This document shows, piece by piece, positions 1-50,013 of a DNA stretch of 64,000 bases. Source of the stretch: an uncultured Candidatus Saccharibacteria bacterium (GTDB taxonomy: Bacteria > Patescibacteriota > WWE3 > UBA101185 > 2-01-FULL-41-18); contig CAZWQF010000001.1 of assembly GCA_964636285.1 (NCBI GenBank), forward strand, positions 7,048-71,047, read 5' to 3'. The notes under the pieces are model-generated. The model saw nothing but the letters and a program-made list of their open reading frames with translations. It searched no databases and was not told the DNA's origin. The position numbers and the translations under genes are program-made. Each line of letters begins with the position of its first letter. Within the stretch, counting starts at the first letter, position 1.

Positions 1-52
1 GAAAAGATTGGGAACTTATTTAACTGAGGTACAGTTGAGTATAGAACGCAAA

Positions 53-92
53 ACGGGCATCTCATCTCCTTTCGGTAAATGTGAATGCCCGT
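53..92 (-). terminator. GC-stem hairpin (acgggcat...atgcccgt) followed by T-tract on minus strand; member of 'aaaacgggc' hairpin family
   Basis: Inverted repeat 53-60/85-92 read directly; reverse complement gives stem-loop plus TTTT, downstream of minus-strand ORF 103-348. Confidence 0.6.
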
Positions 93-102
93 CACAAGAG
101 TC

Positions 103-348
103 TTAACCTTTCGGTTTTATTTTGAAACAGCCCAAAAGAAGCTTGATCACTTCAGGCTCGCGCCCTTGTGGCCACGACGCATCTTCCTTAACTGCTTGCT
201 TTGCTTGTTCTTCGAGCCAATCGAGCTCTTCGTCGGTCCAATAATCGACCACTGGTAAGAAATAGACAAAGAAAAAACCGTGCTCACATTCAATTGTTCC
301 ACTCAACATGCCGCTGCGCCCACTAGCTAGATGTTTTGAGTCTGCCAT
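103..348 (-). CDS. hypothetical protein, GC-rich compositional outlier (81 aa)
   Basis: ORF in six-frame track; local GC clearly higher than surrounding AT-rich DNA; followed by terminator hairpin. Confidence 0.4.
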   Translation of the reverse strand: MADSKHLASGRSGMLSGTIECEHGFFFVYFLPVVDYWTDEELDWLEEQAKQAVKEDASWPQGREPEVIKLLLGCFKIKPKG

Positions 349-522
349 GTTGTTCTCCTGATCAGACTTGCGATTCTAATGAATGTTCTGGGTATTGTAC
401 TTACTGTTAAAAGTATCGTCAAGTACTATGGGGTACTTACTCTAGTTGCTAGAAAACTCAATAATCCATTCGATTCCGAATTTGTCTCTAAACATCCCCG
501 CATAGGAACCCCATGGGCTGTT

Positions 523-768
523 TTAACTTTCATTTACTCGCCCCATAACTTCTGGAACATCGTTGGCAATAAGAAGTGTGGAAGCGCCTATAGGTAGGGC
601 AATATACATTATTTTATTTTCTTCTTTTTCTGAAGGTTGGAAGTCAGCGTTTGCAATATCTTTGAAACGCACTACTTTAGAAAACTCTCCGCCGAATACA
701 GATTTATAAAAAGTAAACGCCTTCTGCGCATTGCCGTTGAAATTTATCCAAGTATTTAATGTTGCCAT
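523..768 (-). CDS. VOC-superfamily PhnB-like protein, apparently truncated (81 aa)
   Basis: N-terminus 'NFNGNAQKAFTFYKSVFGGEF' matches PhnB/3-demethylubiquinone methyltransferase-like VOC domain; length about half of typical. Confidence 0.45.
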   Translation of the reverse strand: MATLNTWINFNGNAQKAFTFYKSVFGGEFSKVVRFKDIANADFQPSEKEENKIMYIALPIGASTLLIANDVPEVMGRVNES

Positions 769-877
769 TTGCTAATGATATCAAATGAAGGGAGTAACAA
801 TAAACTGATTTTTGGCTTCCTCCACTTTGGTGGAAGTAGGAACTTTTGTTTTTAGTATTTGGAAATTAGATAACAAA

Positions 878-926
878 ACGGGCACCAGTCAGAAGTTGGG
901 GATACTGTACTTCTGAAGGTGCCCGT
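878..926 (-). terminator. GC-stem hairpin of the 'aaaacgggc' family (acgggcacc-agt-cagaag...cttctg-aa-ggtgcccgt)
   Basis: Nested inverted repeats read directly; downstream of minus-strand ORF 965-1513; preceded by AAAA on plus strand = T-tract on minus. Confidence 0.6.
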
Positions 927-964
927 TGAATCTTAAGCAGATTCACGCTAAGGGTAGTGCGTGA

Positions 965-1513
965 TCAGCGCATTGCGAAGATGGTCGCTCCCAAGCTGAC
1001 CGTGATGAGAGGGTCTTCGTCTTGCGGGATGGGGATACCCAGCTCCACGAACCGAGTGTGCACCGCTTTGCAGACCGGGCATTTCTCGGTGTGACGGAGC
1101 CAGTCTCCCCAGGAGACAACGCTCGGGTCCGGCCCAAACGCTTCCGCGAGGAGGTGGTTGGAGACCTGCGTCACATCCATGTGGGCGATCAGTTCATAGA
1201 CCCCTGTGGGGATGGGAAAACGCGTCTCGTCCACGTGGATCCAGATCCCGCCCGCCAGCGTGTAGATGTCCACGTGCTCGAGGGCCGTCTCCTTCCCGAT
1301 GTACGCCTTCGGCGCTTCGGAGCTGGAGAGGACCGGGATGTCGATCGAGGACTTGGAGACGTATGCCTTGACCCAGTCGATGACGGCCTTCACATACTCG
1401 TCCCCCTTCTGCTCGTCACCGGCCCAGATGTCCAGTTGGAGCAGGTCGTGGCCGAGGTCGCGCAAATTCTGCTCATTGTCCATACCCGCGTGGAAATAAA
1501 CTGCGTATGACAT
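965..1513 (-). CDS. hypothetical protein, GC-rich (~60% GC) compositional outlier (183 aa)
   Basis: ORF; Shine-Dalgarno AAGGAG 7 nt upstream of ATG (MSYAVYF...); composition foreign to the AT-rich background. Confidence 0.5.
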   Translation of the reverse strand: MSYAVYFHAGMDNEQNLRDLGHDLLQLDIWAGDEQKGDEYVKAVIDWVKAYVSKSSIDIPVLSSSEAPKAYIGKETALEHVDIYTLAGGIWIHVDETRFPIPTGVYELIAHMDVTQVSNHLLAEAFGPDPSVVSWGDWLRHTEKCPVCKAVHTRFVELGIPIPQDEDPLITVSLGATIFAMR

Positions 1514-1654
1514 GTCAATGCTCCTTGGCAAAAGCCACTAATTTGGATGCGCGTATTATAGGTTATTTAATAAATAAAGTCAAACTATAGGTCTTATAGC
1601 TCCCATAGTGGATGAGGTTAAAATTTTTATAGCTCAGCATTGATATTAATTGAA

Positions 1655-1702
1655 CAAAACGGGCACCCTCATATCCTTTCGGAAAATGTGAATGCCCGTT
1701 GT
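1655..1702 (-). terminator. GC-stem hairpin nearly identical to copy at 53-92 (aaaacgggcaccctcatatcctttcggaaaatgtgaatgcccgt)
   Basis: Direct sequence comparison with 51-92; loop 'ctcatatcctttcgg(a/t)aaatgtga' conserved. Confidence 0.6.
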
Positions 1703-1757
1703 AGCTTTTTTATCCCCAAAGGGAAAGGTATAACTACCTACCTTGTGCAGAGTGCTC

Positions 1758-2048
1758 TCAGCCGCGGTTTATCCTCACGGAATTCCCGCTTCCTTGCACC
1801 ACGATGTTGCCATGTCCCCTTACCTGCAAAGGGCCGGACAAGGCTCCCATCTGCAACGTGGCTCCCGGTACAAACGAAGTGCTGCAGTGCTTGCAGCGGA
1901 GAACTTCGCTTGTCCAAGACTGGAGGATGACGATGGTGTCACCCGAGACTAAGAAGTGTGAGCCTTTTTTCTCATTTGGTAACTCAACTTCCCCTCCGCA
2001 CTGCGAACACTTAGCAGGCACAAAGCCTGCATCCGTAATGTCTGGCAT
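1758..2048 (-). CDS. hypothetical zinc-ribbon protein (CxxC...CxxC), GC-rich outlier (~96 aa)
   Basis: ORF with SD AGGAG 7 nt upstream of ATG (MPDITDAG...); CSQCGG and CKHC motifs. Confidence 0.45.
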   Translation of the reverse strand: MPDITDAGFVPAKCSQCGGEVELPNEKKGSHFLVSGDTIVILQSWTSEVLRCKHCSTSFVPGATLQMGALSGPLQVRGHGNIVVQGSGNSVRINRG

Positions 2049-2684: not shown

Positions 2685-3068
2685 TGGCTCCGACGGTAGG
2701 ATTCGAACCTACAACCATCTCCTTACACCTTACCCCATTGTTTCCATTGGGAGTGGACTATATCATCACCTTATTCGTTTTAAGAATTTAGGTGTCGGGC
2801 GCTTAGTCTCTGAACCTTCCACAAAGAAAGTCTTCACCTTCTAGGGGCTTGGCTGCGAATTACCATACTAGATTGTGCTTACTAGCGTAGGCTTTTCGAC
2901 AATTCACCCGATTTTCACTTGTGGATTTCTCCACAAGGCTGCAGTAAACCTCCATGAATTTCTCTATGACAATTTGCACAAACAAGAATTTATAAGTTCT
3001 TGGACATAAAGATTCATGAGGTTGTCAATGTGCCACAGGGAGCCGCGCTACCGTTGCGCTACGTCGGA
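2685..3068 (-). tRNA. tRNA gene interrupted by ~309-nt group I intron in the anticodon loop; anticodon tentatively UGU (Thr). Exon 1 is 3037-3068, exon 2 is 2685-2727
   Basis: Minus-strand read: 5' exon tccgacg-ta-GCGCaacggtaGCGC-g-gctcc-ct; 3' exon tgtaa-ggaga-tggtt-gtaggTTCGAATcctac-cgtcgga-g-CCA; intron contains group I R element GGTTCAGAGACTAAG, S element GATATAGTCC, AGCCAAGCC motif and terminal G. Confidence 0.6.
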
Positions 3069-3217
3069 ATATGCCAGCTTTTTTCAAAGCAAGGGAATTT
3101 TAGCTTATTAGGACGGTGTTTTCAACAGAGATTTAATAAGAGTAGATCAAAGAATTTTAAATATGTTTAATGAAGCGAAAGGCGACGGGCTTAGGCAAAA
3201 AGCCCGTCGCTTTGAAG

Positions 3218-3445
3218 TCACGAGTGTGCCAGCGAAAAATAGTACTCTGGAAAGAGCGCTCTTGCCGTATCTTTTGCGCGCTTGATTCTTACTCCTTCCA
3301 TTACTTGAACAATCGTTTCAGGAGTTACCTTGTCGCGCGCGTTTGGGTCTATCGTTACCTTTATTAGCTTTTTTGAGGTTGGATCCCAAACTCCGTACCC
3401 AAGTCGGACTCGCTGGCCTGTCCAAAGGTTTACTGCAACTTTCAT
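3218..3445 (-). CDS. hypothetical small protein (75 aa)
   Basis: ORF only. Confidence 0.3.
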   Translation of the reverse strand: MKVAVNLWTGQRVRLGYGVWDPTSKKLIKVTIDPNARDKVTPETIVQVMEGVRIKRAKDTARALFPEYYFSLAHS

Positions 3446-3463
3446 ATCACACCCACCTCTGAG

Positions 3464-3769
3464 TCAGCTTTTGGTGCAATTGATTCTGACCTCTTTGCTT
3501 CTGGCTTTTGGCTCAGCGTGTTCTAGCACGGTGAACTGCTGCCGAGGAGAGGGGGAGCCAATAGGGGCCAAGCCGATTTTTTGGCCTTTCTCAAAAGTCC
3601 TGGGTTCGTCCAGCTTGGCGACGATCGCGTAGAATGACCCCAGGTTTGGTGAGTTTCTGTCTGTGGCCCGTCCCGTTCCAATTCGTTTCCATTCCCCTTC
3701 GATAAGGATAAGTAGGTCCATGTGCCGTTCCTTTCTCCTGTCTGATTTTGTCTCAGAATTATTACTCAC
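3464..3769 (-). CDS. hypothetical protein (101 aa)
   Basis: ORF only; moderately GC-enriched. Confidence 0.3.
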   Translation of the reverse strand: MSNNSETKSDRRKERHMDLLILIEGEWKRIGTGRATDRNSPNLGSFYAIVAKLDEPRTFEKGQKIGLAPIGSPSPRQQFTVLEHAEPKARSKEVRINCTKS

Positions 3770-3927
3770 AATCGTCTTTATTGCAAACTTAATTATTCCT
3801 TTTACCTACAAATAAAAAGCCTCTTACATTTTCTTAAAAATTATTCAAAAAACCATTGCAATCCGTTCCCCAATAATTTATATTTTGGGAGTTAGAAGTT
3901 CTAACAATCCCTGCCCCTCCCAGAATT

Positions 3928-4506
3928 ATGATTCTATCTGATAGAGATTTACTCACAGAGATTAAGTCGGGGAGGCTATCTCTTACACCCTTTAATAAAA
4001 GCCATGTTCAACCGGCTAGCATCGACCTCCTTTTGGATTACGAATTTAAAGTCTTTAAAAACTTCATTAAGCCTTATCTTGATCTAAAAGAGCCCGTTTC
4101 TGACTATATGCAAACTGTAAAAATTAAAAAAGATGAGCCATTAATTGTTCATCCAAGAGAATTTGTTTTAGGTACTAGTATTGAATATGTAAAAATACCA
4201 AATAATCTGCTAGCTAGGCTTGAAGGAAAAAGCAGTCTTGGAAGACTTGGACTTATTGTTCATGCCACTGCAGGTTTTATTGATCCAGGTTTTGAAGGTC
4301 AGATTACATATGAGATCACAAATCTTTCAAATATTCCTCTCGCAATCTACGGAGGCATAAAAGTAGCTCAGATGTCGGTTCACACTTTATCAAGCTCTGT
4401 ATTAACCCCTTATGGAGCAAAATCCCTTAACAGTAAATATTTAAAGCAAAAAGGACCAACACCAAGCAAAATGCATTTGAACTTTAAAAAGAATAAGGAT
4501 GTGTAA
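3928..4506 (+). CDS. dcd: dCTP deaminase
   Basis: MILSDRDL... N-terminus and GKSSLGRLGLIVHATAGFIDPGFEG motif typical of Dcd/dUTPase-fold deaminases. Confidence 0.85.
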   Translation: MILSDRDLLTEIKSGRLSLTPFNKSHVQPASIDLLLDYEFKVFKNFIKPYLDLKEPVSDYMQTVKIKKDEPLIVHPREFVLGTSIEYVKIPNNLLARLEGKSSLGRLGLIVHATAGFIDPGFEGQITYEITNLSNIPLAIYGGIKVAQMSVHTLSSSVLTPYGAKSLNSKYLKQKGPTPSKMHLNFKKNKDV

Positions 4507-6124
4507 GATGTTTACAAAAGATGAGAGGCAAAAGTTATCATATTTTTTTACTTCCCTTGATAAAGATGTTTTTGTATTAACCAACCTTCCTGAAATTTTA
4601 AAAGGAGCTTTGTTTTCGCGTTACAGTAGGTCCACAAAACCTCTAAGACAATTATTTCTAGATGAATATTTAAAAAATGAAGAGCTGGGGATTGATAATA
4701 CTGCCCTTTCCCAGACCTCTTTTGACTCGTCAAAAATATTAGCAACTGAAAAAGCGGAAAAGTTTTTCTCAAAGTGGCTTGCAGAATATGGGGATGACTC
4801 TATAGCAGAGCTTGGTGGGGTTCATGTTGGGGTAGAAAATGTAAGTGTCCTTGCAACAAAATCAATGGAAGACAGACGCGTTGGTGTTTCTCCGCTTGAA
4901 AAATCCACTAGATATGTTCGTTTTGATGACAAGGTTAATGGAAAATACAGATTTTATTTTGACAAAAAGATAGAAGCCTCAAAATTTAATTCTCTTTACG
5001 AGAAAACAATGAACGTACTTTTTGACACATACTCTGAGCTTTTAGATCCTATGATGGAGTATTTTAGAACAAAGTTTAAAAAGCCAGAAGATGCTTCAGA
5101 AAAAGCTTATGAGGCCTCAATCAGAGCAAAGGCTTGCGACACTTTAAGAGGATTATTACCTTTATCTACACTTACAAACATGGGGCTTTTTGCAAACGGG
5201 CGTGCATATGAATATATGCTCACAAAGATGTTTGCAGGCACTCTTACAGAAACAAATAGTCTCGCACAGAATATTTATACAGAGCTTGATAAAGTTATCC
5301 ATAATTTTATAGAAAGAATAAAAACTGAAAAAGGAGAGAACTATGTCAAGTATTTAATTGAAACACATAACTTGATAGAAAGCCTTTCTAAAAAGGTGGA
5401 TAAGAAAACTATTTCCAAAGTTGATTCTAATCCAAAACCTCAAGTAGTTTTAGTTGATTTTGATAAAAATGCTGAAGAAAAACTTTGTGCCTCTATTTTA
5501 TTTTCGGTTTCAAATAAACCTCTTAAAAGTTTACTTAGTCTTTCAAAAAAACTTGGCAAAAAGAAAAGAACAGAACTTATAAAAGCTTATGTAGAAAAGA
5601 GGGTAGGCAGATGGAATAAAGTTGGAAGATCCTTTGAAGAGCCCTACTTTCATTTTGAGATAGTCTCAGACTTTGGGGCATATAAAGATCTTGAGAGGCA
5701 TAGAGTACTAACCCAGGATAAGCAGCTCTTTAGTTGTGATCTTGGATATGATATGCCACAAGAAATCAAAGATGCAGGGTTTGAACATAAATACAAAAAG
5801 GCAATGGATTTTGCAAAAAGCACTTTTGTAAAAATATCTGCAAAGTTTCCTCTTGAAGCCCAGTATATTGTAACTCATGGTTATAAGGTTAGATACAGAA
5901 TGAAGATGAACCTTAGAGAAGCATTTCACTTATGCGAATTAAGAAGCTCTCCACAGGGACACCCTGGTTACAGGTTTATTGCGCAAGAAATGTATAAAAG
6001 AATAAAAGAAGCATACCCACTTTTTGGAGAGGTTATGAAGTATGTAAACATGGAAAGCCCAGGTCTTGAAAGACTTTCTTCAGAAGTAAGAAAGGAGGAA
6101 AAGCTGAAAAAGCTTCATAGTTAA
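4499..6124 (+). CDS. thyX: FAD-dependent thymidylate synthase ThyX-like, unusually long (541 aa; apparent internal duplication or large insertion)
   Basis: N-half has ThyX-like ARVS-type start (ALFSRYSRS) and DRRVGVSPLEKSTRY (RHR-x7-S-like motif); C-half has ERHRVLTQ and NLREAFHLCELRSSPQ matching the ThyX C-terminal block. Confidence 0.55.
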   Translation: MCKMFTKDERQKLSYFFTSLDKDVFVLTNLPEILKGALFSRYSRSTKPLRQLFLDEYLKNEELGIDNTALSQTSFDSSKILATEKAEKFFSKWLAEYGDDSIAELGGVHVGVENVSVLATKSMEDRRVGVSPLEKSTRYVRFDDKVNGKYRFYFDKKIEASKFNSLYEKTMNVLFDTYSELLDPMMEYFRTKFKKPEDASEKAYEASIRAKACDTLRGLLPLSTLTNMGLFANGRAYEYMLTKMFAGTLTETNSLAQNIYTELDKVIHNFIERIKTEKGENYVKYLIETHNLIESLSKKVDKKTISKVDSNPKPQVVLVDFDKNAEEKLCASILFSVSNKPLKSLLSLSKKLGKKKRTELIKAYVEKRVGRWNKVGRSFEEPYFHFEIVSDFGAYKDLERHRVLTQDKQLFSCDLGYDMPQEIKDAGFEHKYKKAMDFAKSTFVKISAKFPLEAQYIVTHGYKVRYRMKMNLREAFHLCELRSSPQGHPGYRFIAQEMYKRIKEAYPLFGEVMKYVNMESPGLERLSSEVRKEEKLKKLHS

Positions 6125-6125
6125 T

Positions 6126-7466
6126 ATGCCAGTTAATAATAAATATTTAAAAAAAATGGATTCCCAAATACATAAATTGATTGAGCAAGAAACAAAAAGA
6201 CAGGTAGAAGGCCTTGAGATGATTCCATCGGAAAACTATGTAAGCAGGGCTGTTCTTGATGCTATGGGGTCAGTTCTAACAAATAAATACTCGGAAGGGT
6301 ACCCTGGAAAAAGATACTATGGTGGAAATGAATACATTGACCAAATTGAAAACCTTGCGATTGAGAGAGCAAAAGAATTATTTAAAGTTCCATATGCAAA
6401 TGTGCAACCGTATTCAGGAAGTCCAGCAAACCAGGCAGTTTGTCTTGCACTAATAAATCCAGGAGATTTGATAATGGGAATGAGTCTTTATGATGGCGGC
6501 CACTTAACACATGGGTGGAAGGTTAGTTTTAGTGGAATATATTATAAAAGTATCTCTTATCATGTTACAACTCAAGGCGCAGTAGACTTTGCTGAAGTAA
6601 TAAAACTTGCCAAAGAGTTTAAGCCAAAACTTATTTGGGTTGGAGGCTCCGCCTATACAAAGGAGTATGAATTTGAGTTATTTTCAAAAATTGCAGATGA
6701 GATTGGAGCTTATCTTGTTGCTGATATAGCGCATGTAGCAGGTTTAGTTGTAGCAGGGGTTCACAAAAGCCCCGCTCCGTTTGCGCATGTAATCACTACC
6801 ACAACTCATAAAACGTTAAGAGGTCCAAGAGGTGCAATAATAATGGTTACCAAAAAAGGAATTAAAAAGGATTTACAAATTTGCCAAAAAATAGATAAAG
6901 CAGTTTTCCCAGGTCTCCAAGGAGGTCCTCACAACCATACAACAGCAGGAGTTGCTGTTGCTTTAAAGGAGGCGTCAACAGACAAGTTTAAAAAATACGG
7001 TAAGCAAATTGTTAAGAATGCAAAAGTGTTATCTAAGGCTTTAAAAAGACACGGTTTTAATCTTGTTGGAGGCATTACAGAAAATCACTTAATCCTCATC
7101 AATTTATCCTCAACAAATGGGGTAGGGAGTGGGTACTTTGCGCAGGAGGTTTTATCCGTTGCAGGTATTACTGTTAATAAAAACACAGTTCCTTCGGAGC
7201 CTTCATCCTCCTATTATCCTTCTGGGATCAGGCTTGGAACACCAGCACTGACCTCAAGAGGAATGGCAGCAGACGAGATGGAAAAAATTGCAGATTTTAT
7301 TTATCAAGCTTTAAGTACAGTTCAGATAAAAAGTCTCCCACAAGATAAAGATGAAAGAGCACTTTTTGTCAAAGAATTTAAAAGTAAAATATCAAGAAAC
7401 AAGGAGCTCCATAAGATTAGAACTGAAGTTAAAAAACTGTGCAAAAAGTTTCCTATTCGTATCTAA
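6126..7466 (+). CDS. glyA: serine hydroxymethyltransferase
   Basis: MIPSENYVSRAVLDAMGSVLTNKYSEGYPGKRYYGG; PLP-lysine region TTTHKTLRGPRG. Confidence 0.9.
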   Translation: MPVNNKYLKKMDSQIHKLIEQETKRQVEGLEMIPSENYVSRAVLDAMGSVLTNKYSEGYPGKRYYGGNEYIDQIENLAIERAKELFKVPYANVQPYSGSPANQAVCLALINPGDLIMGMSLYDGGHLTHGWKVSFSGIYYKSISYHVTTQGAVDFAEVIKLAKEFKPKLIWVGGSAYTKEYEFELFSKIADEIGAYLVADIAHVAGLVVAGVHKSPAPFAHVITTTTHKTLRGPRGAIIMVTKKGIKKDLQICQKIDKAVFPGLQGGPHNHTTAGVAVALKEASTDKFKKYGKQIVKNAKVLSKALKRHGFNLVGGITENHLILINLSSTNGVGSGYFAQEVLSVAGITVNKNTVPSEPSSSYYPSGIRLGTPALTSRGMAADEMEKIADFIYQALSTVQIKSLPQDKDERALFVKEFKSKISRNKELHKIRTEVKKLCKKFPIRI

Positions 7467-8634
7467 GAGCTTCTATTGGCGAAAGCTTTGACGCCCTGAT
7501 TGCCGGAGTAATTCCAAAAACAATTCCAATCAATGCAGAAACTCCAAAAGATAAAAATACAAAGAAGTAATTAATTTCTGTTGCTAAGAAGTTATTAATA
7601 ATTAACGAAGCCCCCATTCCAACAAGAACTCCAATTAAACCTCCTATCAAACTTAGCACAACAGCCTCAATCAAAAATTGAATAAGAATATCAGATCTTC
7701 TTGCCCCTAAGGCTTTCCTAAGGCCTATTTCCCGTGTCCTTTCCGTTACGGAAACAAGCATAATATTCATAATCCCTACACCTCCAACTAAGAGCGAAAT
7801 AGCTGCAATGCCGCCTAGCCCTGTTGATAAAACTCCAAGGATTCTGTTTACAAGATTCATTGTTTCTTCCTGTGTGTAAATTTTAAAGCTATCTTTTACA
7901 TCAATTTGTCTATCAAGTACTTTTTGAACTTTATCTTTAACATCGTTAATATCTTTACCTTCTTGAGTTTTTATATAGAAAAAAGATGGCTTGTCCACTC
8001 CCAAAAGTTTTTTTGCAGACACCGAAGGCATAATTACTATATTGTCTTGGTCCTGCCCAAAAATACTTCCTCTTTTTGCTTGGACTCCTATAACCTTGTA
8101 TTTTTTGTCTTTAATTATTACTTCCTTTCCAAGCGGATTTACATTTGGGAAAAGTTTATCTTTTAAAGTAATTCCTATGACGGCAACATCTCCTCCTTCG
8201 TCTTTTGAAAATGGTCTACCTTGTGCAACAGAAATATTTAATGCCCTAAAATAATTTCCCGTTACGGCCATGATTATTGTTCCGGTTACTTCCTTATTTT
8301 TATATTCCGTAGTGCTTCTTGCTTGAATTCCGGGAATTACTTCTGTGACTTCAGGAACTCTTTGCTCTATTAAATCAGCGTACTCAAATCTAAATCTATT
8401 TACCGCAACCTCATCGGGACCTCCGCCTTCGCCGTTACCTGGAAACACAGAAAGAAGATTTGCCCCAAAGCTATTGAGCTCGTTTCTAATTGTTTTTCCA
8501 AGGCCAGAAACAATTGAAACAAGAATAATAACCGCCGCAACTCCAATGATCATTCCTATCATAGTTAAAATCGATCTAGCTTTATTTAATTTGATAGCCC
8601 TTAATGCAAGCCTTAAAATCTGAAAAACATCCAT
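7453..8634 (-). CDS. ABC transporter permease, MacB/FtsX family
   Basis: N-terminal TM, large periplasmic MacB-like domain, C-terminal FtsX-like 3-TM bundle. Confidence 0.75.
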   Translation of the reverse strand: MDVFQILRLALRAIKLNKARSILTMIGMIIGVAAVIILVSIVSGLGKTIRNELNSFGANLLSVFPGNGEGGGPDEVAVNRFRFEYADLIEQRVPEVTEVIPGIQARSTTEYKNKEVTGTIIMAVTGNYFRALNISVAQGRPFSKDEGGDVAVIGITLKDKLFPNVNPLGKEVIIKDKKYKVIGVQAKRGSIFGQDQDNIVIMPSVSAKKLLGVDKPSFFYIKTQEGKDINDVKDKVQKVLDRQIDVKDSFKIYTQEETMNLVNRILGVLSTGLGGIAAISLLVGGVGIMNIMLVSVTERTREIGLRKALGARRSDILIQFLIEAVVLSLIGGLIGVLVGMGASLIINNFLATEINYFFVFLSFGVSALIGIVFGITPAIRASKLSPIEALRYE

Positions 8635-8635
8635 T

Positions 8636-9316
8636 TTATTTGCCTTTCCTTACGTCCTCAGTTATTTTTCCGTCGCTAACTCTAATTTTTCTGTCGGTAA
8701 CTTCCGCAACATCTGAATCATGTGTAACTATTACAACTGTTTTTCCTTCTCTACTTAAGTTAGTGAGCATTTCCAAAATTTCTTTTCCCGATTTGCTGTC
8801 TAAATTTCCGGTAGGCTCGTCAGCCAAAATAATTTCAGGATTGTTTATAAGCGCTCTAGCTATTGCTACTCTTTGCTGCTGCCCTCCTGATAATTGCGAA
8901 GGTTTATTTGTGAGCCTGTCACCAAGGCCTACTTTAACCAAAAGCTCTTTAGCTCTCTTATCTAGATCTTTTTTGTTTTTACTGTACATTGCAGGAAGTT
9001 TTACATTTTCTATTGCCGGGGTCTTTGCAAGAAGATTAAATGACTGAAAAATAAAACCAATTTTTTGGTTTCTAATTCTTGCAAAGTCGTTGTCTTTAAA
9101 TTTTGTAACATCTGTGCCTTCAAAAAGATAAGCACCTCCTGAAGGGGCATCAAGCATACCTATTACGTGCATAAGAGTTGATTTGCCTGATCCAGAAGGC
9201 CCAATAATAGAAATGAATTCACCTTTATTTATCTCTAGATTTACGCCATCTAAAGCTCTCACTTCTACACCTTCTAGTTTGTAAACTTTGGAAACATTCT
9301 CCATTTTAACCAGCAT
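8636..9316 (-). CDS. ABC transporter ATP-binding protein (MacB/LolD-like)
   Basis: Walker A GPSGSGKST, signature LSGGQQQRVAIARAL, Walker B ILADEPTGNLD. Confidence 0.9.
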   Translation of the reverse strand: MLVKMENVSKVYKLEGVEVRALDGVNLEINKGEFISIIGPSGSGKSTLMHVIGMLDAPSGGAYLFEGTDVTKFKDNDFARIRNQKIGFIFQSFNLLAKTPAIENVKLPAMYSKNKKDLDKRAKELLVKVGLGDRLTNKPSQLSGGQQQRVAIARALINNPEIILADEPTGNLDSKSGKEILEMLTNLSREGKTVVIVTHDSDVAEVTDRKIRVSDGKITEDVRKGK

Positions 9317-9318
9317 AA

Positions 9319-10506
9319 TTATTTGGAAGTGCTATCAGTTGAGACAGTAACCTTTGCGCCTTCCGTAAGTTTGTCACCTCTGACAAATTGTGCGTTCTCA
9401 AAAATGTCCGTGGTTTCTTTTACCTCAGCAAAATCATCGGTTACAAGACCTTCCTCAATCCTGACTTTGTTTGCTTTTCCGTCTTTGATTTTCCATCCGT
9501 ATGGGCCTTTTTCGTCTTCATCAATGTATTCAACAGGGAGGGTTAAAACATTCTCTCTTGTTTGGGTCATGATTTTTATGTCTCCTGAAAGCCCTATTAT
9601 TTTAAGAACATCCTCTTTTTCTATTGCTACTTTTACTTTTACAGCAGTTGCTCCGCTATCAGTAATAACTGTTTTTGCTCCAACCTCGGCTAGCGTTCCA
9701 GATATCTTTTCGTCACCATAGCTGTCTAGGGAGATCTCCACTTTTTGACCTTTTGATACTAACCTTACGTCTGTCTCATCAACCTCTGCCTCAAAAACTA
9801 TATTTTTTGGATTTACTACGGAAAAAAGCTTTGTTCCCGCCATAACCTGCTGCCCTTCGTTTATACCTTCTAGTGCCAAAATTCCATCTACCGGCGATAC
9901 TACGCTTGAACTCTTAAAATCTGTCCAAGCAGATATGTAGGTTGCATAAGTTGCGGAAACATTTTGATTTGTGTAGGTCTCTTTGCTTTGAAGCATTGCA
10001 AGTTCGGCTTCTGCGCCTTTTAGTGATGCCTCCGCGGACTTCCAAACATTTTTGTCTTCCGTGTCCCTATCGCTGTCATATTTTTCTTTGGCAACTATAT
10101 TTAGCCTCTTCTTTGCGTCTACATTAGCTCTTGCAGCTGACAGCTCCTTTTGGTAGGTGTCCTGCCCACTTTTTGCAAGAAGGTATGAAGAGTAAGCAGA
10201 ATCTGCTGCAGCCTTCAAAGAGACCGGATCCAAATCTACTATGGCTTGACCCTTTTTAACTTCAGTGCCGTTCGCAAGATTAACTTTTTTGACGGTTGCT
10301 GAAACAATAGAGTACTTTGTGCTTCCGTCGGTCACCTTTGTTTCACCAGAAGCGGAAACCATTTTGGTAATGGTTCTTTTTTCTACCTTTGATTCAGTCA
10401 CTTTTGTTGCCGCCGTTTTTGTTCTAAAAATAAAGAATGCTCCTATTGCAACAACAATAAGAATTACGGCCACAAGTTTTTTATGAGTTTTAATATACCC
10501 AATCAC
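9319..10506 (-). CDS. periplasmic adaptor/membrane fusion protein (HlyD/MacA-like)
   Basis: N-terminal TM, coiled-coil region, beta-barrel-like C-terminus; operon with MacB-like genes. Confidence 0.7.
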   Translation of the reverse strand: MIGYIKTHKKLVAVILIVVAIGAFFIFRTKTAATKVTESKVEKRTITKMVSASGETKVTDGSTKYSIVSATVKKVNLANGTEVKKGQAIVDLDPVSLKAAADSAYSSYLLAKSGQDTYQKELSAARANVDAKKRLNIVAKEKYDSDRDTEDKNVWKSAEASLKGAEAELAMLQSKETYTNQNVSATYATYISAWTDFKSSSVVSPVDGILALEGINEGQQVMAGTKLFSVVNPKNIVFEAEVDETDVRLVSKGQKVEISLDSYGDEKISGTLAEVGAKTVITDSGATAVKVKVAIEKEDVLKIIGLSGDIKIMTQTRENVLTLPVEYIDEDEKGPYGWKIKDGKANKVRIEEGLVTDDFAEVKETTDIFENAQFVRGDKLTEGAKVTVSTDSTSK

Positions 10507-10568
10507 AGGCTTATTCTACCTTATTATAAGTATTTGACCAATGAGAACATATCGAATATCATCAATAC

Positions 10569-10853
10569 ATGTCATTAAAATTACAATGCTCAAATTGCTT
10601 TAAGGCATTAAGTGTGCCTTCAAGAATGAAATTATATTTACACTTGGAAAAAGTTGGGGAAGCAACGGTAACCCAGCTTGTTAACGGTTCTGGCTTAAAA
10701 CAGCCTACAGTTTCTTATCATCTAAAAGAGATGGAGCACGGGGGTGTTTTGTCCTCAAGAAAAGAAGGAAAAGAAGTTTATTACAAAATTGCGAATGCCT
10801 GTCCCCATGACAGCAAGCAGTGCGTTATCACAGGAATTTATGCTAACAATTAA
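10569..10853 (+). CDS. ArsR/SmtB-family HTH transcriptional regulator (likely start at MKLYLHL, ~10626)
   Basis: wHTH pattern ...ATVTQLVNGSGLKQPTVSYHLKEMEHGGVL...; immediately upstream of suf operon. Confidence 0.65.
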   Translation: MSLKLQCSNCFKALSVPSRMKLYLHLEKVGEATVTQLVNGSGLKQPTVSYHLKEMEHGGVLSSRKEGKEVYYKIANACPHDSKQCVITGIYANN

Positions 10854-11586
10854 AGACCTTAAGGTTTCAGTAGAAGACAAAAGTATTCTAAAAGGCGTTT
10901 CATTGCATGTTAAGCATGGAGAAGCCCACGCAATAATGGGCCCTAACGGTTCTGGAAAAAGCACTCTAGCCCAAACTTTGATGGGCCATCCAAAATATAC
11001 CGTTGAGTCTGGAAGCGTTTCCCTTAACGGGAAAGACCTATTGGAGCTTGATACAACAACAAGAGCTTCTGAAGGTTTGTTTTTGGCTTTTCAGTATCCA
11101 AGTGAAATTCCGGGAGTTACAATCGCCAATTTTTTAAGACTTGTTTACAACAATAAAATGAAACGAACAGGTGGTAGGGAGCTGTCACCAGCTCTTTTTA
11201 GAAAAGTGCTTGAAGAAAAAATGGAAGAGCTTCATATGAATAAAGCTTTTGCTCAAAGATATCTAAACGAAGGGTTCTCAGGTGGAGAAAAAAAGAGAAT
11301 GGAAGTTTTGCAAATGGCTATTTTGGAGCCAAAGATTGCAATTCTTGACGAAACTGACTCGGGGCTTGATATCGACGCTCTTCAGATTGTTTCGCACGGA
11401 GTAAATCTTTTAAGAGAAAAGCTTGGAATGTCTGTGTTGATCATTACTCACTATGCAAGGATTTTAAATTACATAAAACCAGACCATGTCCATGTTTTCA
11501 AAGATGGAAAAGTTATCAGAGAGGGCGGGGCTGAGCTTGCTATTGAGCTTGAAAAAACTGGATATAAAAACTATGACTCAAACTAA
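10840..11586 (+). CDS. sufC: Fe-S cluster assembly ATPase SufC
   Basis: [42 protein letters not shown]; LSGGEKKR. Confidence 0.9.
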
Positions 11587-12979
11587 TCCAATTGATGACT
11601 CCTATAAACTTGGCTTTCACGACGATATTAAATACTCTTTTAAATCACAAAAAGGGCTTAATGAGAATATTGTGAGACAAATTTCTCAGATGAAAGGGGA
11701 GCCCGAATGGATGCTTGAGTATAGGCTTTCCGCATACAAAACTTTCTTGGAAAAGCCTATGCCCATGTGGATGGCGGACGAAAAGGATATAAATGACATT
11801 AAATTTGATGAAATTTATTACTACCTAAAACCCACTGATAAACAGGAGAAAAATTGGGATGATGTTCCAGACGATATTAAAAGAACTTTTGACAAAATTG
11901 GTGTTCCTCAAGCCGAGAGAGAGTTTTTGGGAGGAGTTAAATCCCAATACGACTCAGAAGTAGTTTATGGTTCTGTGTTAAAGGAGCTTGAAGACCAAGG
12001 TGTCATATTTTTAGGAACAGATGAGGCCCTTAAAAAATACCCAGAGATTTTTAAACAGTATTTTGGAACTGTAGTTCCATCTAGAGACAACAAGTTTTCT
12101 GCGTTAAACAGTGCAGTTTGGAGTGGGGGCTCCTTTGTATACATTCCAAAAGGTGTAAAAGTAGAAAGGCCTTTGCAGGCTTACTTTAGAATTAATTCTC
12201 AAAACGCAGGTCAGTTTGAAAGAACTTTAATAATTGCGGAAGAGGGGAGTTTTGTACATTATGTAGAAGGCTGCTCTGCTCCTTCGTTTAGTAGTGGCTC
12301 TTTGCACTCGGCGGTTGTAGAAATAATTGTAAAAGAAGGTGCTAGGGTTAGGTACACAACAATTCAAAACTGGTATAAAAATGTTTTCAACCTTGTTACA
12401 AAAAGAGCTATAGCCCATAAGAATGCAACTATGGAATGGGTGGACGGAAATCTTGGTTCAAGGCTTACGGTAAAGTTTCCTTCGGTATATTTGGTTGGCG
12501 AAGGGGCAAAAGGTGAAATCCTTTCAATAGCGTATGCCGGAGAAGGTCAACATCAACACGCAGGCGGAAAAATAGTTCATGGAGCTCCAAATACTTCGTC
12601 AAGAATTACATCCAAATCTATAAGCGCAAAAGGAGGTAGGGCTTCTTACAGGGGTTTAATTTCTGTAGTTCCGGGAGCCACAAATTCCAAATCAAGAGTT
12701 GAGTGCGACGCTTTAATTCTGGATTCCGATTCAAGAACAGACACATACCCAGTTATGAAAATTAAAGAGCCCGAAGTGAGTATTGAGCATGAAGCCTCCG
12801 TAAGCAAGGTTGGAGAAGATCAGCTTTTTTATTTAATGAGCAGGGGATTATCAGAAGAAGAGGCTATGAATCTTGTTGTCTCTGGATTTATTGAGCCAAT
12901 TGTAAAAGAGCTCCCGCTAGAATATGCAATTGAACTAAACAAGCTCATCGAGCTTGAAATGGAAGGGAGCGTTGGCTAA
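11573..12979 (+). CDS. sufB: Fe-S cluster assembly protein SufB
   Basis: Length and conserved SufB blocks (HYVEGCSAP...; C-terminal [13 protein letters not shown]). Confidence 0.9.
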
Positions 12980-12981
12980 AT

Positions 12982-13632
12982 ATGGCGCACAAAGAATTAA
13001 GATTTGAAGAAATTAAGCCAAACAAAGTTGCGGTATTAAAATATGATTTGCCTTACGAAAGGCTGGAAGTTACTGAGCCTGGACTTACCCAGTTTATTTT
13101 TGATGTGCCAGATTCAAATGTCTCAAAAAAAGTGGATGTTGTCTTAAAAGTTGAAGGTGCTGAGGCAGAAGTTTTGGGTTCTTATGTTGGAAACGGAAAC
13201 CAAGAAATTGATCTGGAGGTTAACAGTATTCATGAGGTTCCAAACACTAGATGCTTAACACAAATTAGGGGCGTAATGACTGATCATTCTGATTCCAAAT
13301 TCAAAGGAATGATTGTGATCAGAGAAGGGGCTCAAAAAACCGCTTCCTACCTTGATCATGACGTCCTGATTTTGGGAAAAAATGCTAAAAATCAGTCAGA
13401 GCCAGGACTAGAAATTGAAGCTGACGACGTTAAAGCTACACATGGAGCTACAACAGGGAGAATTCTTGATGAGCATTTATTCTATTTAATGAGTAGGGGG
13501 ATATCAAAAAAAGAATCAGAAAAACTTGTTATTGAGGGGTTTCTATCGCCCGCGGTTGAAAAAGTACAAGATGAGGAAGTTAAAAATTATTTATCCATAA
13601 GACTTCAGAAGGCTATTGAACAGGCCTGTTAG
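12982..13632 (+). CDS. sufD: SufD-like protein, short form (216 aa)
   Basis: C-terminal [22 protein letters not shown] shared with SufB/SufD family; truncated relative to canonical SufD. Confidence 0.7.
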   Translation: MAHKELRFEEIKPNKVAVLKYDLPYERLEVTEPGLTQFIFDVPDSNVSKKVDVVLKVEGAEAEVLGSYVGNGNQEIDLEVNSIHEVPNTRCLTQIRGVMTDHSDSKFKGMIVIREGAQKTASYLDHDVLILGKNAKNQSEPGLEIEADDVKATHGATTGRILDEHLFYLMSRGISKKESEKLVIEGFLSPAVEKVQDEEVKNYLSIRLQKAIEQAC

Positions 13633-13641
13633 AATTAACAT

Positions 13642-14886
13642 ATGTTTGATGTAAATAAGGTAAGAGAGGATTTCCCAATTTTAAAAAGAAAAATAAATGG
13701 AAAAGATTTGCACTATCTTGATAACGCAGCAACTTCCCAAAAGCCCCAAGTTGTTATTGATTCAATCTCTGATTATTACTCAAATCATAATGCAAATGTC
13801 CACAGAGGTATTCACACTCTTTCAGAAGAAGCCACCGATTTATATGAAAACGCTAGAAAAGAAGTTCAAAAATTTATCAACGCCAGGTATCCGGAAGAGA
13901 TAGTTTTCACAAAAGGGACTACAGACAGTATTAATCTGGTTTCCTCAGCTGTCATGCCTCTTTTATGGGATTCCGGGAAAGAAAACGCAGGGGACGAAAT
14001 GCCTGTTATCAGCTTCACTGAAGTTGAGCATCATAGCAATCTTGTACCATGGCAAGAGCTTGCAAAGAGGGCCTCTATCAAACTTGAGCCAATTCCCGTA
14101 ACGGGAAAAGGATTTTTAGATGGTAATCCAAAAGATTTATTTTCTAAAAATATGAAAATCCTAGCTATCACACACGCATCAAATTTCTTAGGTTCCGTGT
14201 TGCCCCTTAAAGATATAATAAAAACTGCACACTCTGTGGGGTCTTTGGTTGTTGTTGATGGGGCTCAAGCAATTCCTCACATGAAGGTAGATGTCCAGAG
14301 TTTGAATTGTGACTTCTATGCTTTTTCGGGACATAAAATGCTGGGTCCTACAGGAATTGGAGTTCTTTACATTAAAAAGGAAATTCAAGAAAAACTAGGT
14401 GTCTACCAGACAGGAGGGGGAATGATAAGAGAGGTGTATTCTGATAGAGCGGTTTGGGACCAAGCTCCATATAAATTTGAAGCTGGAACACCAAATGTTG
14501 AGGGTGCTGTTGGGCTTATGGCTGCTATCACTTACTTAAAAGGTTTAGGCATGGATTCCGTGAGAGATCACGAACTTTCCCTGATTAAATATTCACTTGA
14601 AAAGCTTACTGATCTTGGTGATATTGATATTTATGGTCCAGAAAATGCAGAGGACAGGACAGGAGTCATTTCATTTAATGTAAAAGGAATTCATTCGCAT
14701 GATCTGGCATCAGTTTTAGACTCTGAGGGCGTTGCAATTAGGAGCGGGCACCACTGCACAATGCCAATGCACCTAAAGCTTGCCATACCTGCTTCGGCAA
14801 GAATGAGTTTTAATGTGTACAGCACAAAAGACGATGTAGATGCACTTATTTCAGGAATTGAAAAAGCAAGAAAGATTTTACTTTGA
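13642..14886 (+). CDS. sufS: cysteine desulfurase SufS (class V aminotransferase)
   Basis: SGHKMLGPTGIGVLY PLP-lysine motif; catalytic RSGHHC. Confidence 0.9.
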   Translation: MFDVNKVREDFPILKRKINGKDLHYLDNAATSQKPQVVIDSISDYYSNHNANVHRGIHTLSEEATDLYENARKEVQKFINARYPEEIVFTKGTTDSINLVSSAVMPLLWDSGKENAGDEMPVISFTEVEHHSNLVPWQELAKRASIKLEPIPVTGKGFLDGNPKDLFSKNMKILAITHASNFLGSVLPLKDIIKTAHSVGSLVVVDGAQAIPHMKVDVQSLNCDFYAFSGHKMLGPTGIGVLYIKKEIQEKLGVYQTGGGMIREVYSDRAVWDQAPYKFEAGTPNVEGAVGLMAAITYLKGLGMDSVRDHELSLIKYSLEKLTDLGDIDIYGPENAEDRTGVISFNVKGIHSHDLASVLDSEGVAIRSGHHCTMPMHLKLAIPASARMSFNVYSTKDDVDALISGIEKARKILL

Positions 14887-14887
14887 T

Positions 14888-15253
14888 ATGGATTTATATA
14901 GAGAAACGCTCTTAGAAAATTTTAAAAATAAAGCTAATAGGGGAAGGATTGAGAACCCTTCGGTTAGTAAAAAAGGTGCCAATCCCTTATGTGGGGATTC
15001 AATTGAGCTTGACCTTGTTGTAACAGATAGCGTAATAACAGATGTAAAATTTGAGGGTTCCGGGTGTGCAGTTAGCATGGCAGCAACATCCATGCTTATA
15101 GATAAGGTAATTGGAATGAAAGTTGAGGAAGCAAAGAAAATTACAAAAGAAGATTTAATTAACAATATTAATCCCAATTTAACTTTAAGCAGAATTAAAT
15201 GCGCATCTTTAGGGTATAGTGCGCTTATGGAAGCGTTAGCTGAAATTAAGTAA
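14888..15253 (+). CDS. sufU: SufU/IscU-like Fe-S scaffold (NifU N-terminal domain)
   Basis: GANPLCGDSIELDLV ... GSGCAVSMAATS conserved Cys pattern. Confidence 0.8.
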   Translation: MDLYRETLLENFKNKANRGRIENPSVSKKGANPLCGDSIELDLVVTDSVITDVKFEGSGCAVSMAATSMLIDKVIGMKVEEAKKITKEDLINNINPNLTLSRIKCASLGYSALMEALAEIK

Positions 15254-50007: not shown

Positions 50008-50013
50008 ATTTGA

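What the first reader, a model, noticed from the sequence alone, without database searches (positions are those of the whole stretch)
2685..3068. tRNA gene interrupted by a ~309-nt group I intron
On the minus strand, a 32-nt 5' tRNA half (acceptor, D-arm, anticodon stem 5' strand) and a 43-nt 3' half (anticodon 3' strand, variable loop, T-arm GTAGGTTCGAATCCTAC, acceptor, CCA) are separated by 309 nt. The intervening sequence carries the group I catalytic-core signatures GGTTCAGAGACTAAG (R) and GATATAGTCC (S), an AGCCAAGCC motif as in cyanobacterial tRNA-Leu introns, and a terminal G. The reconstructed anticodon loop CU|UGUAA suggests tRNA-Thr(UGU). That is not the usual tRNA-Leu(UAA), tRNA-fMet, tRNA-Ile or tRNA-Arg host of bacterial tRNA group I introns.
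Basis: partly seen in the sequence, partly recalled or inferred. Interest (0 to 1): 0.7.

Follow-up and report, generated by a model that had tools for sequence, protein, structure and literature searches.

The report
Self-splicing intron in a tRNA-Asn gene
The tRNA gene really is split by a self-splicing group I intron, but it is tRNA-Asn(GUU) cut between anticodon positions 35 and 36, a class already described and tested in Patescibacteria, not a new tRNA-Thr case.

Summary
A split tRNA gene lies on the minus strand at 3068..2685, interrupted by 309 nt that match Rfam Intron_gpI (103.6 bits, E 9e-26).

The 5' exon ends ...CUCCCUGU (3035), the intron is 3034..2726, and the 3' exon starts UAAGGAG (2725). 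The anticodon loop is therefore CUGUUAA, which makes this tRNA-Asn(GUU) with the intron at 35/36. Five lines of evidence support this:
- A conserved P1 pairs exon CUGU with the guide sequence GCAG, with the U·G wobble at U35.
- The ωG directly before UAAGGAG is invariant in 14 of 14 complete homologous introns.
- The tRNA body is 88-94% identical to intronless tRNA-Asn and at most 72% to tRNA-Thr.
- Nine metagenomic intronless genes carry the predicted junction.
- An independent assembly breaks exactly at 3035 and 2725.

ARAGORN makes the same Thr(UGU) miscall. That error is documented by Nakagawa et al. 2026, who also showed in-vitro splicing at 35/36; Williams 2020 listed the type as Asn.4Ug.

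Two features are specific to this copy. Its P1 loop holds a decayed remnant of the HNH homing-endonuclease gene that relatives still carry. It also lacks the P7.1/P7.2 helices that 10 of the 13 relatives have.

Verdict: a further member of a known class, of low interest.

The parts
3035..3068 (-). tRNA-Asn(GUU) 5' exon, 34 nt: acceptor UCCGACG, D arm, anticodon stem GCUCC, loop C32 U33 G34 U35
   Evidence: Sequence. All 14 complete intron-bearing homologues read CTCCCTGT and then diverge. An independent Logan contig ends exactly at 3035.
2726..3034 (-). Group I intron, 309 nt, from G3034 to ωG2726
   Evidence: RF00028 at 103.6 bits. Boundaries come from P1 and ωG conservation and from the assembly break points.
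2685..2725 (-). tRNA-Asn 3' exon, 41 nt: U36 A37 A38, anticodon stem GGAGA, variable loop, T arm, acceptor, G73, encoded CCA (2687..2685)
   Evidence: A Logan contig starts exactly at 2725. The junction is found in intronless genes.
3033..3038 (-). P1 5' strand: exon C32-U35 (CUGU) plus intron G1 G2. The splice site lies after U3035.
   Evidence: It pairs with CUGCAG in the MFE fold. CUGU/GCAG with a U·G wobble is invariant in 14 of 14.
2939..2944 (-). P1 3' strand, CUGCAG. The internal guide sequence GCAG is 2942..2939, and G2942 pairs with U35.
2945..3032 (-). L1 (P1 loop) insertion of 88 nt. It folds into a long hairpin whose stem pairs AACCUCAUGAAU (3023..3012) with AUUCAUGGAGGUU (2959..2947).
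   Evidence: MFE fold. In homologues L1 is 5-10 nt, 52 nt, or about 325 nt with an ORF.
2937..2993 (-). Remnant of the 3' end of an HNH homing-endonuclease gene. Frame 0 reads ILVCANCHREIHGGLLQP and has no start codon. The core is 2989..2960.
   Evidence: It aligns to the end of the ORFs in L007, L040, L052 and L095 (...KCILVCANCHRELEAGITQLP). 28 of 30 nt are identical to L095, with a local score of 26 against 9.1±1.5 for shuffles. The ORFs score PF01844 HNH at 20-21.2 bits, against a cut-off of 21.4.
2918..2937 (-). P2 hairpin CUUGUGGA-GAAA-UCCACAAG
   Evidence: 7 of 8 pairs show changes on both sides across homologues.
2905..2911 (-). P3 5' strand UCGGGUG
   Evidence: It pairs with 2801..2795. 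Covariation is seen here.
2795..2801 (-). P3 3' strand CGCCCGA
2854..2901 (-). P4 (UGuCGAA 2901..2895 with UUCGCA 2859..2854) enclosing P5/P5a (2892..2862)
   Evidence: Rfam alignment. P4 covariation.
2814..2853 (-). P6/P6a region, starting GCCAAGCCCC
   Evidence: Rfam alignment. MAFFT misaligned this segment for the window, so it was not counted.
2804..2808 (-). P7 5' strand GACUA, inside J6/7-P7 UCAGAGACUA (2813..2804). P3' follows directly, with no P7.1/P7.2.
   Evidence: 10 of 13 homologues carry P7.1 and P7.2 here.
2756..2760 (-). P7 3' strand UAGUC, inside J8/7-P7 AUGAUAUAGUCC (2766..2755)
   Evidence: The sequence is invariant in the alignment.
2767..2794 (-). P8 hairpin CACCU...AGGUG
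   Evidence: 4 of 5 pairs show changes on both sides.
2733..2753 (-). P9 hairpin with a GAAA loop, followed by the tail UAAGGUG that ends in ωG2726
3097..3125 (-). Sigma-70-like promoter match (TTGAAA-17-TAAAAT) 29 nt upstream of the tRNA. It is preceded by the terminator hairpin of the upstream gene at 3210..3182.
   Evidence: Consensus scan only. The number of promoter-like sites equals the shuffle expectation.

Best explanation
This is a tRNA-Asn(GUU) gene, probably from a Patescibacteria genome, interrupted between anticodon nucleotides U35 and U36 by a 309-nt self-splicing group I intron.

Mechanism, following standard group I chemistry:
- The last four exon bases, C32-U35 (CUGU), pair with the intron's guide sequence GCAG (2942..2939) to form P1. 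U35·G2942 is the wobble pair that marks the 5' splice site.
- P1 stacks on the tRNA anticodon stem (CUCC/GGAG).
- An external guanosine bound in P7 attacks after U35.
- The terminal G2726 (ωG) then takes its place in the G-binding site, and the exons are joined to give the loop CUGUUAA.

The intron belongs to the lineage that occupies this site in many Patescibacteria. It most resembles a copy in a Colwellbacteria MAG that carries an HNH homing-endonuclease gene and the helices P7.1/P7.2. From such an ancestor it appears to have lost most of the endonuclease gene, leaving about 57 nt of its 3' end inside an 88-nt hairpin in the P1 loop. It also appears to have lost P7.1/P7.2.

Shown here: the ribozyme fold and its covariation, the boundaries, the tRNA identity, and the homology of the remnant. 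Inferred: actual splicing of this copy, the direction of the two losses, and the taxon.
For: 1. The intron is real. RF00028 scores 103.6 bits, E 9e-26. 11 of 13 homologues at the same site score 57-90 bits.

2. The fold is supported by comparison.
- RNAalifold on 10 homologues gives the anticodon stem, P1-P9 and P7.1/P7.2, with 33 of 60 pairs compensatory.
- With the window included, 89.8% of cells pair, against 38-44% when partners are slid. 23 pairs change on both sides, and 0 of 500 shuffles reach the observed values.
- The MFE fold of the window pre-tRNA independently gives P1 (CUGUGG/CUGCAG), the L1 hairpin, P2, P3 and P8, with z = -3.7.

3. The boundaries are at 35/36.
- In 14 of 14 complete copies the exon reads CTCCCTGT and the next bases then diverge.
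- GCAG(C) sits just 5' of P2 in every copy.
- A G directly precedes TAAGGAG in every copy.

4. The tRNA is Asn.
- With the loop masked, the body is 94% identical to the best intronless tRNA-Asn(GUU). The top 12 hits, all Asn, score 88-94%. The best tRNA-Thr(UGU) scores 72%.
- Nine metagenomic intronless genes carry the predicted spliced junction. L126 and L127 differ from the spliced window tRNA within positions 1-73 only by one compensatory acceptor pair.
- U1-A72 with discriminator G73 matches E. coli tRNA-Asn (my own knowledge).

5. An independent assembly marks the same two positions. In Logan SRR12762304 one contig ends exactly at 3035 and another starts exactly at 2725. A de Bruijn graph does this when an intronless junction CTGT|TAAGG is also present in the reads.

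6. The class is published. The same class, the same 2-nt ARAGORN/tFind miscall as Thr(UGU) 33/34, and in-vitro self-splicing at 35/36 of a representative are all reported in PMC13011429. The type Asn.4Ug is listed in 10.1101/2020.01.27.920355.

7. The endonuclease-gene remnant is homologous to intact copies.

8. The nearest core is L040, at 79% identity. L040 has both the endonuclease gene and P7.1/P7.2.
Against: - Splicing of this particular copy has not been tested.
- It carries an 88-nt insertion between the 5' splice site and the guide sequence.
- It lacks P7.1/P7.2, which most relatives have. Either feature could impair activity.
- P1 and the anticodon stem are invariant in the sample, so they carry no covariation signal. 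The anticodon stem's 3' strand was also part of the search pattern.
- No convincing P10 pairing was seen.
- The Logan assembly also breaks inside tRNA-Ser at 16167. Breaks within tRNA genes are therefore not unique to this site, and the intronless allele itself was not recovered.
- The taxon is inferred only from the relatives' labels. The window's own record was not identified.
Confidence: 0.93

Rival explanations
1. One reading: a tRNA-Thr(UGU) gene with the intron between positions 33 and 34 (intron 3036..2728).
For: - ARAGORN in intron mode calls exactly this.
- The spliced Thr version still folds as a cloverleaf.
- U3037 precedes this site and G2728 ends this version of the intron, so the simple U(-1)/ωG rule is satisfied in this one sequence.
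Against: - In the conserved P1, U33 pairs with an A in a Watson-Crick pair. The G·U wobble is at U35.
- No guide sequence complementary to CUCCCU exists in the intron.
- Homologues L067, L077, L090 and L121 have A or C where this reading needs ωG.
- The 'GU' this reading assigns to the intron start is invariant in 14 of 14 copies, while the following bases vary, as expected for anticodon bases G34 and U35.
- The tRNA body is at most 72% identical to tRNA-Thr(UGU) and 88-94% to tRNA-Asn.
- No intronless CCCTTGTAAGGAG gene was found among the 120 loci.
- The assembly breaks at 3035 and 2725, not at 3037 and 2727.
- PMC13011429 documents this exact miscall and sequenced spliced products at 35/36.
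Confidence: 0.02
2. The gene is a decaying, non-splicing copy. The large L1 insertion and the loss of P7.1/P7.2 have inactivated the ribozyme, and tRNA-Asn is supplied by another gene or by an intronless allele in the population.
For: - P7.1/P7.2 are absent although 10 of 13 relatives have them.
- 88 nt separate the splice site from the guide sequence.
- The assembly break points suggest that an intronless version exists in the same sample.
Against: - Every core helix (P1-P9) is intact in this copy, with compensatory differences from relatives.
- It has the highest RF00028 score of the family, 103.6 bits.
- The L1 insertion folds into a closed hairpin that brings the two P1 strands together.
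- Relatives carry about 325 nt in the same loop.
- Many active group I introns, such as the Azoarcus tRNA-Ile intron, lack P7.1/P7.2 (established knowledge).
- No other tRNA-Asn gene lies in the 64-kb window.
Confidence: 0.05

Closest known systems
Patescibacteria tRNA-Asn(GUU) group I introns at position 35/36 (Nakagawa et al., mSystems 2026, PMC13011429; type 'Asn.4Ug' of Williams, bioRxiv 2020, 10.1101/2020.01.27.920355)
   Same: - The host tRNA and the insertion site between U35 and U36 are the same.
- U(-1) and ωG are present.
- ARAGORN and tFind miscall these genes as Thr(UGU) 33/34 in the same way.
- Some members carry HNH endonuclease genes.
- The intron is homologous to 13 complete and 2 truncated copies found here in Patescibacteria MAGs.
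   Different: - This copy keeps only a frameshifted, start-less 3' remnant of the HNH gene in L1.
- It lacks P7.1/P7.2, the helices typical of subgroup IA, to which the paper assigns these introns.
- Its own splicing is untested.
Classical bacterial tRNA group I introns of subgroup IC3: cyanobacterial/plastid tRNA-Leu(UAA) at 34/35, tRNA-fMet at 33/34, Azoarcus tRNA-Ile and Agrobacterium tRNA-Arg at 36/37
   Same: - A compact self-splicing ribozyme in the anticodon loop.
- P1 is built from anticodon-loop bases and stacks on the anticodon stem.
- There is no P5abc extension.
- This copy, like the IC3 introns, has no P7.1/P7.2.
   Different: - The host tRNA and the insertion position differ.
- Its nearest relatives have P7.1/P7.2, so the lineage is IA-like rather than IC3.
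- The core motifs UUCAGAGACUAAG and GAUAUAGUCC differ from the cyanobacterial GCAGAGACUCG and AGAGAGUCC, which I quote from memory.
Group I introns carrying HNH homing endonucleases, and the homing cycle of gain, fixation, endonuclease decay and loss (Goddard and Burt model)
   Same: - Relatives hold a roughly 104-codon HNH-like ORF in L1 that runs across the guide sequence into P2.
- L007's ORF has an in-frame stop.
- This copy keeps only the last ~19 codons.
- An intronless form appears to coexist in the sample.
   Different: Endonuclease activity, homing and the order of events are not shown here. The Pfam HNH match is just below the cut-off.

Membership tests
Group I intron (Rfam RF00028) | Covariance-model match at or above the gathering score | tested here: met
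   103.6 bits against a gathering score of 50, E 8.9e-26, covering model positions 1-253 in full.
Group I intron (Rfam RF00028) | P1 helix in which the last exon base, a U, forms a wobble pair with a G of the internal guide sequence | tested here: met
   Exon CUGU pairs with GCAG, with U3035·G2942. This appears in the MFE fold and in the RNAalifold consensus. It is invariant in 14 of 14 copies, so it is conserved but carries no covariation.
Group I intron (Rfam RF00028) | Terminal guanosine (ωG) directly before the 3' exon | tested here: met
   G2726. A G directly precedes TAAGGAG in all 15 intron-bearing loci and in the window.
Group I intron (Rfam RF00028) | Conserved core helices P3, P4, P6, P7, P8 and P9 supported by compensatory changes | tested here: met
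   P2, P3, P4, P8 and P9 give 23 pairs with changes on both sides and 89.8% paired cells, against about 40% when partners are slid. P5, P6 and P7.1/7.2 covary in A2. P7 is invariant.
Group I intron (Rfam RF00028) | Guanosine-dependent self-splicing | not testable with these tools
   Shown in vitro for a relative from GCA_016700035.1 in PMC13011429. Not shown for this copy.
Patescibacteria tRNA-Asn(GUU) 35/36 intron class | The host is tRNA-Asn(GUU) | tested here: met
   88-94% body identity to intronless tRNA-Asn and at most 72% to Thr(UGU). The spliced junction is present in 35 genomic and 9 metagenomic intronless Asn genes.
Patescibacteria tRNA-Asn(GUU) 35/36 intron class | Insertion between nucleotides 35 and 36 | tested here: met
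   P1 and ωG conservation, and assembly breaks at 3035 and 2725.
Patescibacteria tRNA-Asn(GUU) 35/36 intron class | Sequence homology to other introns at the same site | tested here: met
   It aligns over the whole core with 13 copies. The best is L040, with 150 of 190 aligned bases identical.
Patescibacteria tRNA-Asn(GUU) 35/36 intron class | Subgroup IA architecture (P7.1/P7.2 between P7 and P3') | tested here: not met
   The window reads AGAGACUA then directly AGCGCCCGA (P3'). 10 of 13 relatives have two hairpins there. Classification with subgroup covariance models, as used in the paper, was not available. L052, L077 and L102 also lack these helices.
Patescibacteria tRNA-Asn(GUU) 35/36 intron class | The host organism belongs to Patescibacteria | tested here: inconclusive
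   14 of the 15 intron-bearing loci and nearly all matching tRNA-Asn genes come from MAGs labelled as Patescibacteria lineages. The window's own record was not identified. Its GC of about 38% and its gene content are compatible.
   U33 pairs with A. The required G is absent in 4 of 13 homologues. Body identity to Thr(UGU) is at most 72%.

The most novel reading that the evidence does not exclude
This locus may be a snapshot of the homing cycle in a natural Patescibacteria population. Intron-bearing and intronless tRNA-Asn alleles would coexist in one sample, as the assembly graph branching exactly at both splice junctions suggests. The intron has already lost its HNH endonuclease gene and P7.1/P7.2. 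The leftover gene fragment would be kept because it folds into a hairpin that closes the P1 loop. If the sequencing run were RNA rather than DNA, the same break points would instead be direct in-vivo evidence of splicing at 35/36.
Probability: 0.35. Interest if true: 0.35.

Novelty: new member of a known kind. Interest (0 to 1): 0.2.

Why it matters
- **Annotation.** Intron-aware tRNA finders, and a careful human reader, call this gene tRNA-Thr(UGU). The genome then seems to lack tRNA-Asn and to have an extra Thr gene. That distorts completeness estimates and codon-usage inferences for reduced genomes.
- **Biology.** This is one more example of the abundant self-splicing tRNA introns of Patescibacteria. 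It is a compact derivative: the endonuclease gene is reduced to a stub and P7.1/P7.2 are gone. It could serve as a minimal ribozyme of this lineage if shown to be active.
- **Limits.** It does not open a new question. The class, its site and its activity are already published.

Tried and rejected
- **ARAGORN -i.** It gives Thr(UGU). I rejected this as the known 2-nt miscall.
- **MAFFT alignment A1.** It misaligned the window's P6-P7 segment, because the window lacks P7.1/P7.2. Those helices were therefore left out of the pair counts.
- **Intron unitig in the Logan assembly.** I looked for it through two small ORFs inside the intron. Neither is on record.
- **Intronless allele with the window's own flanks.** Nine intronless tRNA-Asn genes were found in JGI metagenomes, and none shares the flanks.
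- **Papers mentioning SRR12762304 or SRR12762303.** None found, so whether the run is DNA or RNA is unknown.
- **Identifying the source genome.** Exact-protein look-up shows an unnamed NCBI contig of 147,989 nt. tblastn of neighbouring proteins against all fetched loci found no synteny.
- **Repeat of the tRNA 3' end, as for an island integrated at the tRNA.** None in the window.
- **P10 pairing.** I looked by eye for pairing between the 3' exon and the bases 5' of the guide sequence. Nothing is conserved across homologues.
- **Pfam on the four small ORFs next to the tRNA.** Only sub-threshold matches, to DUF1706 and Glyoxalase.

Full report
**1. The observation**

On the minus strand, window 3068..2685 holds the two halves of a tRNA gene separated by 309 nt.
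- Rfam's Intron_gpI model matches 2957..2734 at 103.6 bits (gathering score 50, E 8.9e-26) over the full model.
- The standard ARAGORN run finds no tRNA there.
- ARAGORN in intron mode finds a 75-nt tRNA with a 309-nt intron and calls it tRNA-Thr(tgt), intron 3036..2728.

So the object is real. What remained open was where the boundaries lie and which tRNA this is.

**2. The boundaries**

A group I 5' splice site is defined by a U·G wobble in P1.
- The only guide sequence in the right place, just 5' of the P2 hairpin, is GCAG (2942..2939). It pairs with exon CUGU (3038..3035) so that U3035 faces G2942.
- The minimum-free-energy fold of the 384-nt precursor finds this P1 on its own, as CUGUGG/CUGCAG. 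It also finds P2, P3 and P8 (z = -3.7).
- Splicing after U3035 and after G2726 gives the anticodon loop CUGUUAA, which is GUU, Asn.

**3. Comparative test**

I scanned one genome per species for the 3'-exon pattern TAAGGAG-N6-GTAGGTTCGAATCCTAC.
- Every intronless gene with the UCC.../...GGAG acceptor reads CTCCCTGT|TAAGGAG (Asn). The remaining hits are tRNA-Lys and a few others. None reads CCCTTGTAAGGAG. ARAGORN of them tRNA-Asn(gtt).
- Fifteen loci carry an intron at the same place, and 13 of these are complete.
- In all 13 and in the window, the exon reads CTCCCTGT and the following bases then differ. GCAG(C) lies just 5' of P2, and a G directly precedes TAAGGAG.
- The G that the Thr reading needs two bases upstream is replaced by A or C in L067, L077, L090 and L121.

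With the anticodon loop masked, the window tRNA is 94% identical to the best intronless tRNA-Asn. The top twelve hits, all Asn, range from 88 to 94%. The best tRNA-Thr(UGU) from the same loci reaches 72%. There is a caveat: the Asn and Lys genes were selected by the search pattern, whereas the Thr genes were bystanders.

A metagenome scan for the predicted spliced junction found nine intronless tRNA-Asn genes. Two of them differ from the spliced window tRNA within positions 1-73 only by one compensatory acceptor-stem pair.

**4. An independent assembly**

Two neighbouring genes are also on record in a Logan assembly of run SRR12762304.
- The contig carrying dcd-thyX-glyA begins exactly at window 3035.
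- The contig carrying the downstream 157-aa gene begins exactly at window 2725.
- In a k-mer graph, a contig stops at the last base shared by two paths. These stops are what an intronless junction CTGT|TAAGG in the same reads would produce. The Thr reading predicts 3037 and 2727 instead.

This is an inference with limits. The intronless path itself was not retrieved. The first contig's other end falls inside tRNA-Ser at 16167, so breaks inside tRNA genes are not rare in that assembly. I also could not learn whether the run is DNA or RNA.

**5. The ribozyme**

RNAalifold on ten homologues gives the following elements, with 33 of 60 pairs showing compensatory changes:
- the anticodon stem and P1, with U·G at the splice site;
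- P2, P3, P4, P5 and P6;
- two extra hairpins between P7 and P3', namely P7.1 and P7.2;
- P8 and P9.

I then counted the helices as they occur in the window on the 14-sequence alignment.
- 89.8% of cells pair, against 38-44% with slid partners.
- 23 pairs change on both sides.
- No shuffle out of 500 reaches the observed values.
- P1, P7 and the anticodon stem are invariant, so they are uninformative for covariation.

Coordinates of all elements are given in the parts list. Eleven of the 13 homologues pass the RF00028 gathering score, at 57-90 bits.

**6. What is particular to this copy**

The P1 loop varies widely across the family:
- 5-10 nt in the short relatives;
- 52 nt in L008;
- about 325 nt in L007, L040, L052 and L095.

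In those four long copies the loop holds a roughly 104-codon ORF ending ...KCILVCANCHRELEAGITQLP, which runs across the guide sequence. The L052 and L095 ORFs match Pfam HNH at 20 and 21.2 bits, just under the 21.4 cut-off. L040's ORF gave no HNH match at E ≤ 0.01. The published survey also reports HNH genes in four such introns.

The window's 88-nt loop translates in one frame as ILVCANCHREIHGGLLQP and has no start codon. Thirty nucleotides (2989..2960) are 28/30 identical to L095, with a local score of 26 against 9.1±1.5 for shuffles. It is therefore the stub of a deleted endonuclease gene. The stub is enclosed by a 12-bp stem that brings the two P1 strands together.

The window also goes directly from P7 to P3'. 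Its closest relative, L040 (79% identity over the core), has both P7.1/P7.2 and an intact ORF. I read both absences as secondary losses, which is an inference. L007's ORF has an in-frame stop, which looks like another stage of decay.

**7. Comparison with the literature**

- Williams (bioRxiv 2020, 10.1101/2020.01.27.920355) extended the known bacterial tRNA hosts of group I introns from 4 to 21. According to Nakagawa et al., that work includes Asn.4Ug and notes that it is sometimes miscalled Thr.2Ug.
- Nakagawa et al. (mSystems 2026, PMC13011429) found 15 tRNA-Asn(GUU) genes with introns at 35/36 in 95 complete Patescibacteria genomes.
- They showed that ARAGORN and tFind often report these genes as Thr(UGU) 33/34 through a two-base shift.
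- They demonstrated precise in-vitro self-splicing at 35/36, with a ωG-to-C control.
- They classed the introns as subgroup IA.
- The paper does not discuss endonuclease remnants or presence/absence polymorphism.

**8. Verdict**

The finding is a genuine group I intron in a tRNA gene. The host is tRNA-Asn(GUU) and the site is 35/36. The class is already described and experimentally validated.

This copy is a further member with minor peculiarities: the endonuclease-gene stub in L1, no P7.1/P7.2, and a probable intronless allele in the same sample. Its own activity and the source taxon are inferred, not shown.

Scores: interest 0.2; confidence in the explanation 0.93.

Noticed in passing
window 16149-16236 (tRNA-Ser GCT); Logan contig SRR12762304_74582 spans window 3035-16167: The same independent contig that starts at the intron boundary ends 19 nt into tRNA-Ser(GCT). 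This suggests strain-level or shared-sequence heterogeneity at that tRNA gene in the sample as well.
   Followed up: no
window 1-2000: GC is 47.7% here against about 38% for the rest of the window. The region holds only short ORFs, including long overlapping ORFs on both strands at 965-1531, and none has a Pfam match. It lies just downstream of the tRNA-Asn 3' end, so it could be foreign DNA. No repeat of the tRNA 3' end was found in the window.
   Followed up: partly
window 4499-6124: The ThyX (Thy1, PF02511) protein is 538-541 aa, about twice the usual length. Its start overlaps the end of dcd.
   Followed up: no
L007 (CAVXIE010000002.1, Staskawiczbacteria MAG), intron upstream of locus position 4394: The HNH-like ORF in the P1 loop of this tRNA-Asn intron has an in-frame TAA (…CQICSYDKY*GGLDLHH…). 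It is probably a decaying endonuclease gene.
   Followed up: partly
L009 (QLUR01000061.1, labelled 'Bacillota bacterium HKB214'): A contig end carries the 3' end of the same intron type followed by the Patescibacteria-type tRNA-Asn 3' exon. The contig is likely mis-binned, or this is a rare non-Patescibacteria host.
   Followed up: no
L052, L077, L102: Three other tRNA-Asn 35/36 introns also lack P7.1/P7.2. L052 and L102 have divergent P3, P4 and P6 sequences (GGGAACC instead of GCCAAG). L052 and L095 fall below the RF00028 gathering score. The family is structurally heterogeneous.
   Followed up: partly
window 50001-52000: AT skew is strongly negative (-0.33) and GC is raised (0.435), over a 718-aa minus-strand ORF at 50014-52170.
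   Followed up: no
L008 (CALRHH010000013.1, Nomurabacteria MAG), P1 loop of the tRNA-Asn intron: The P1 loop holds a 52-nt insertion with no evident similarity to the HNH gene. L1 appears to be a general insertion-tolerant site in this intron family.
   Followed up: no
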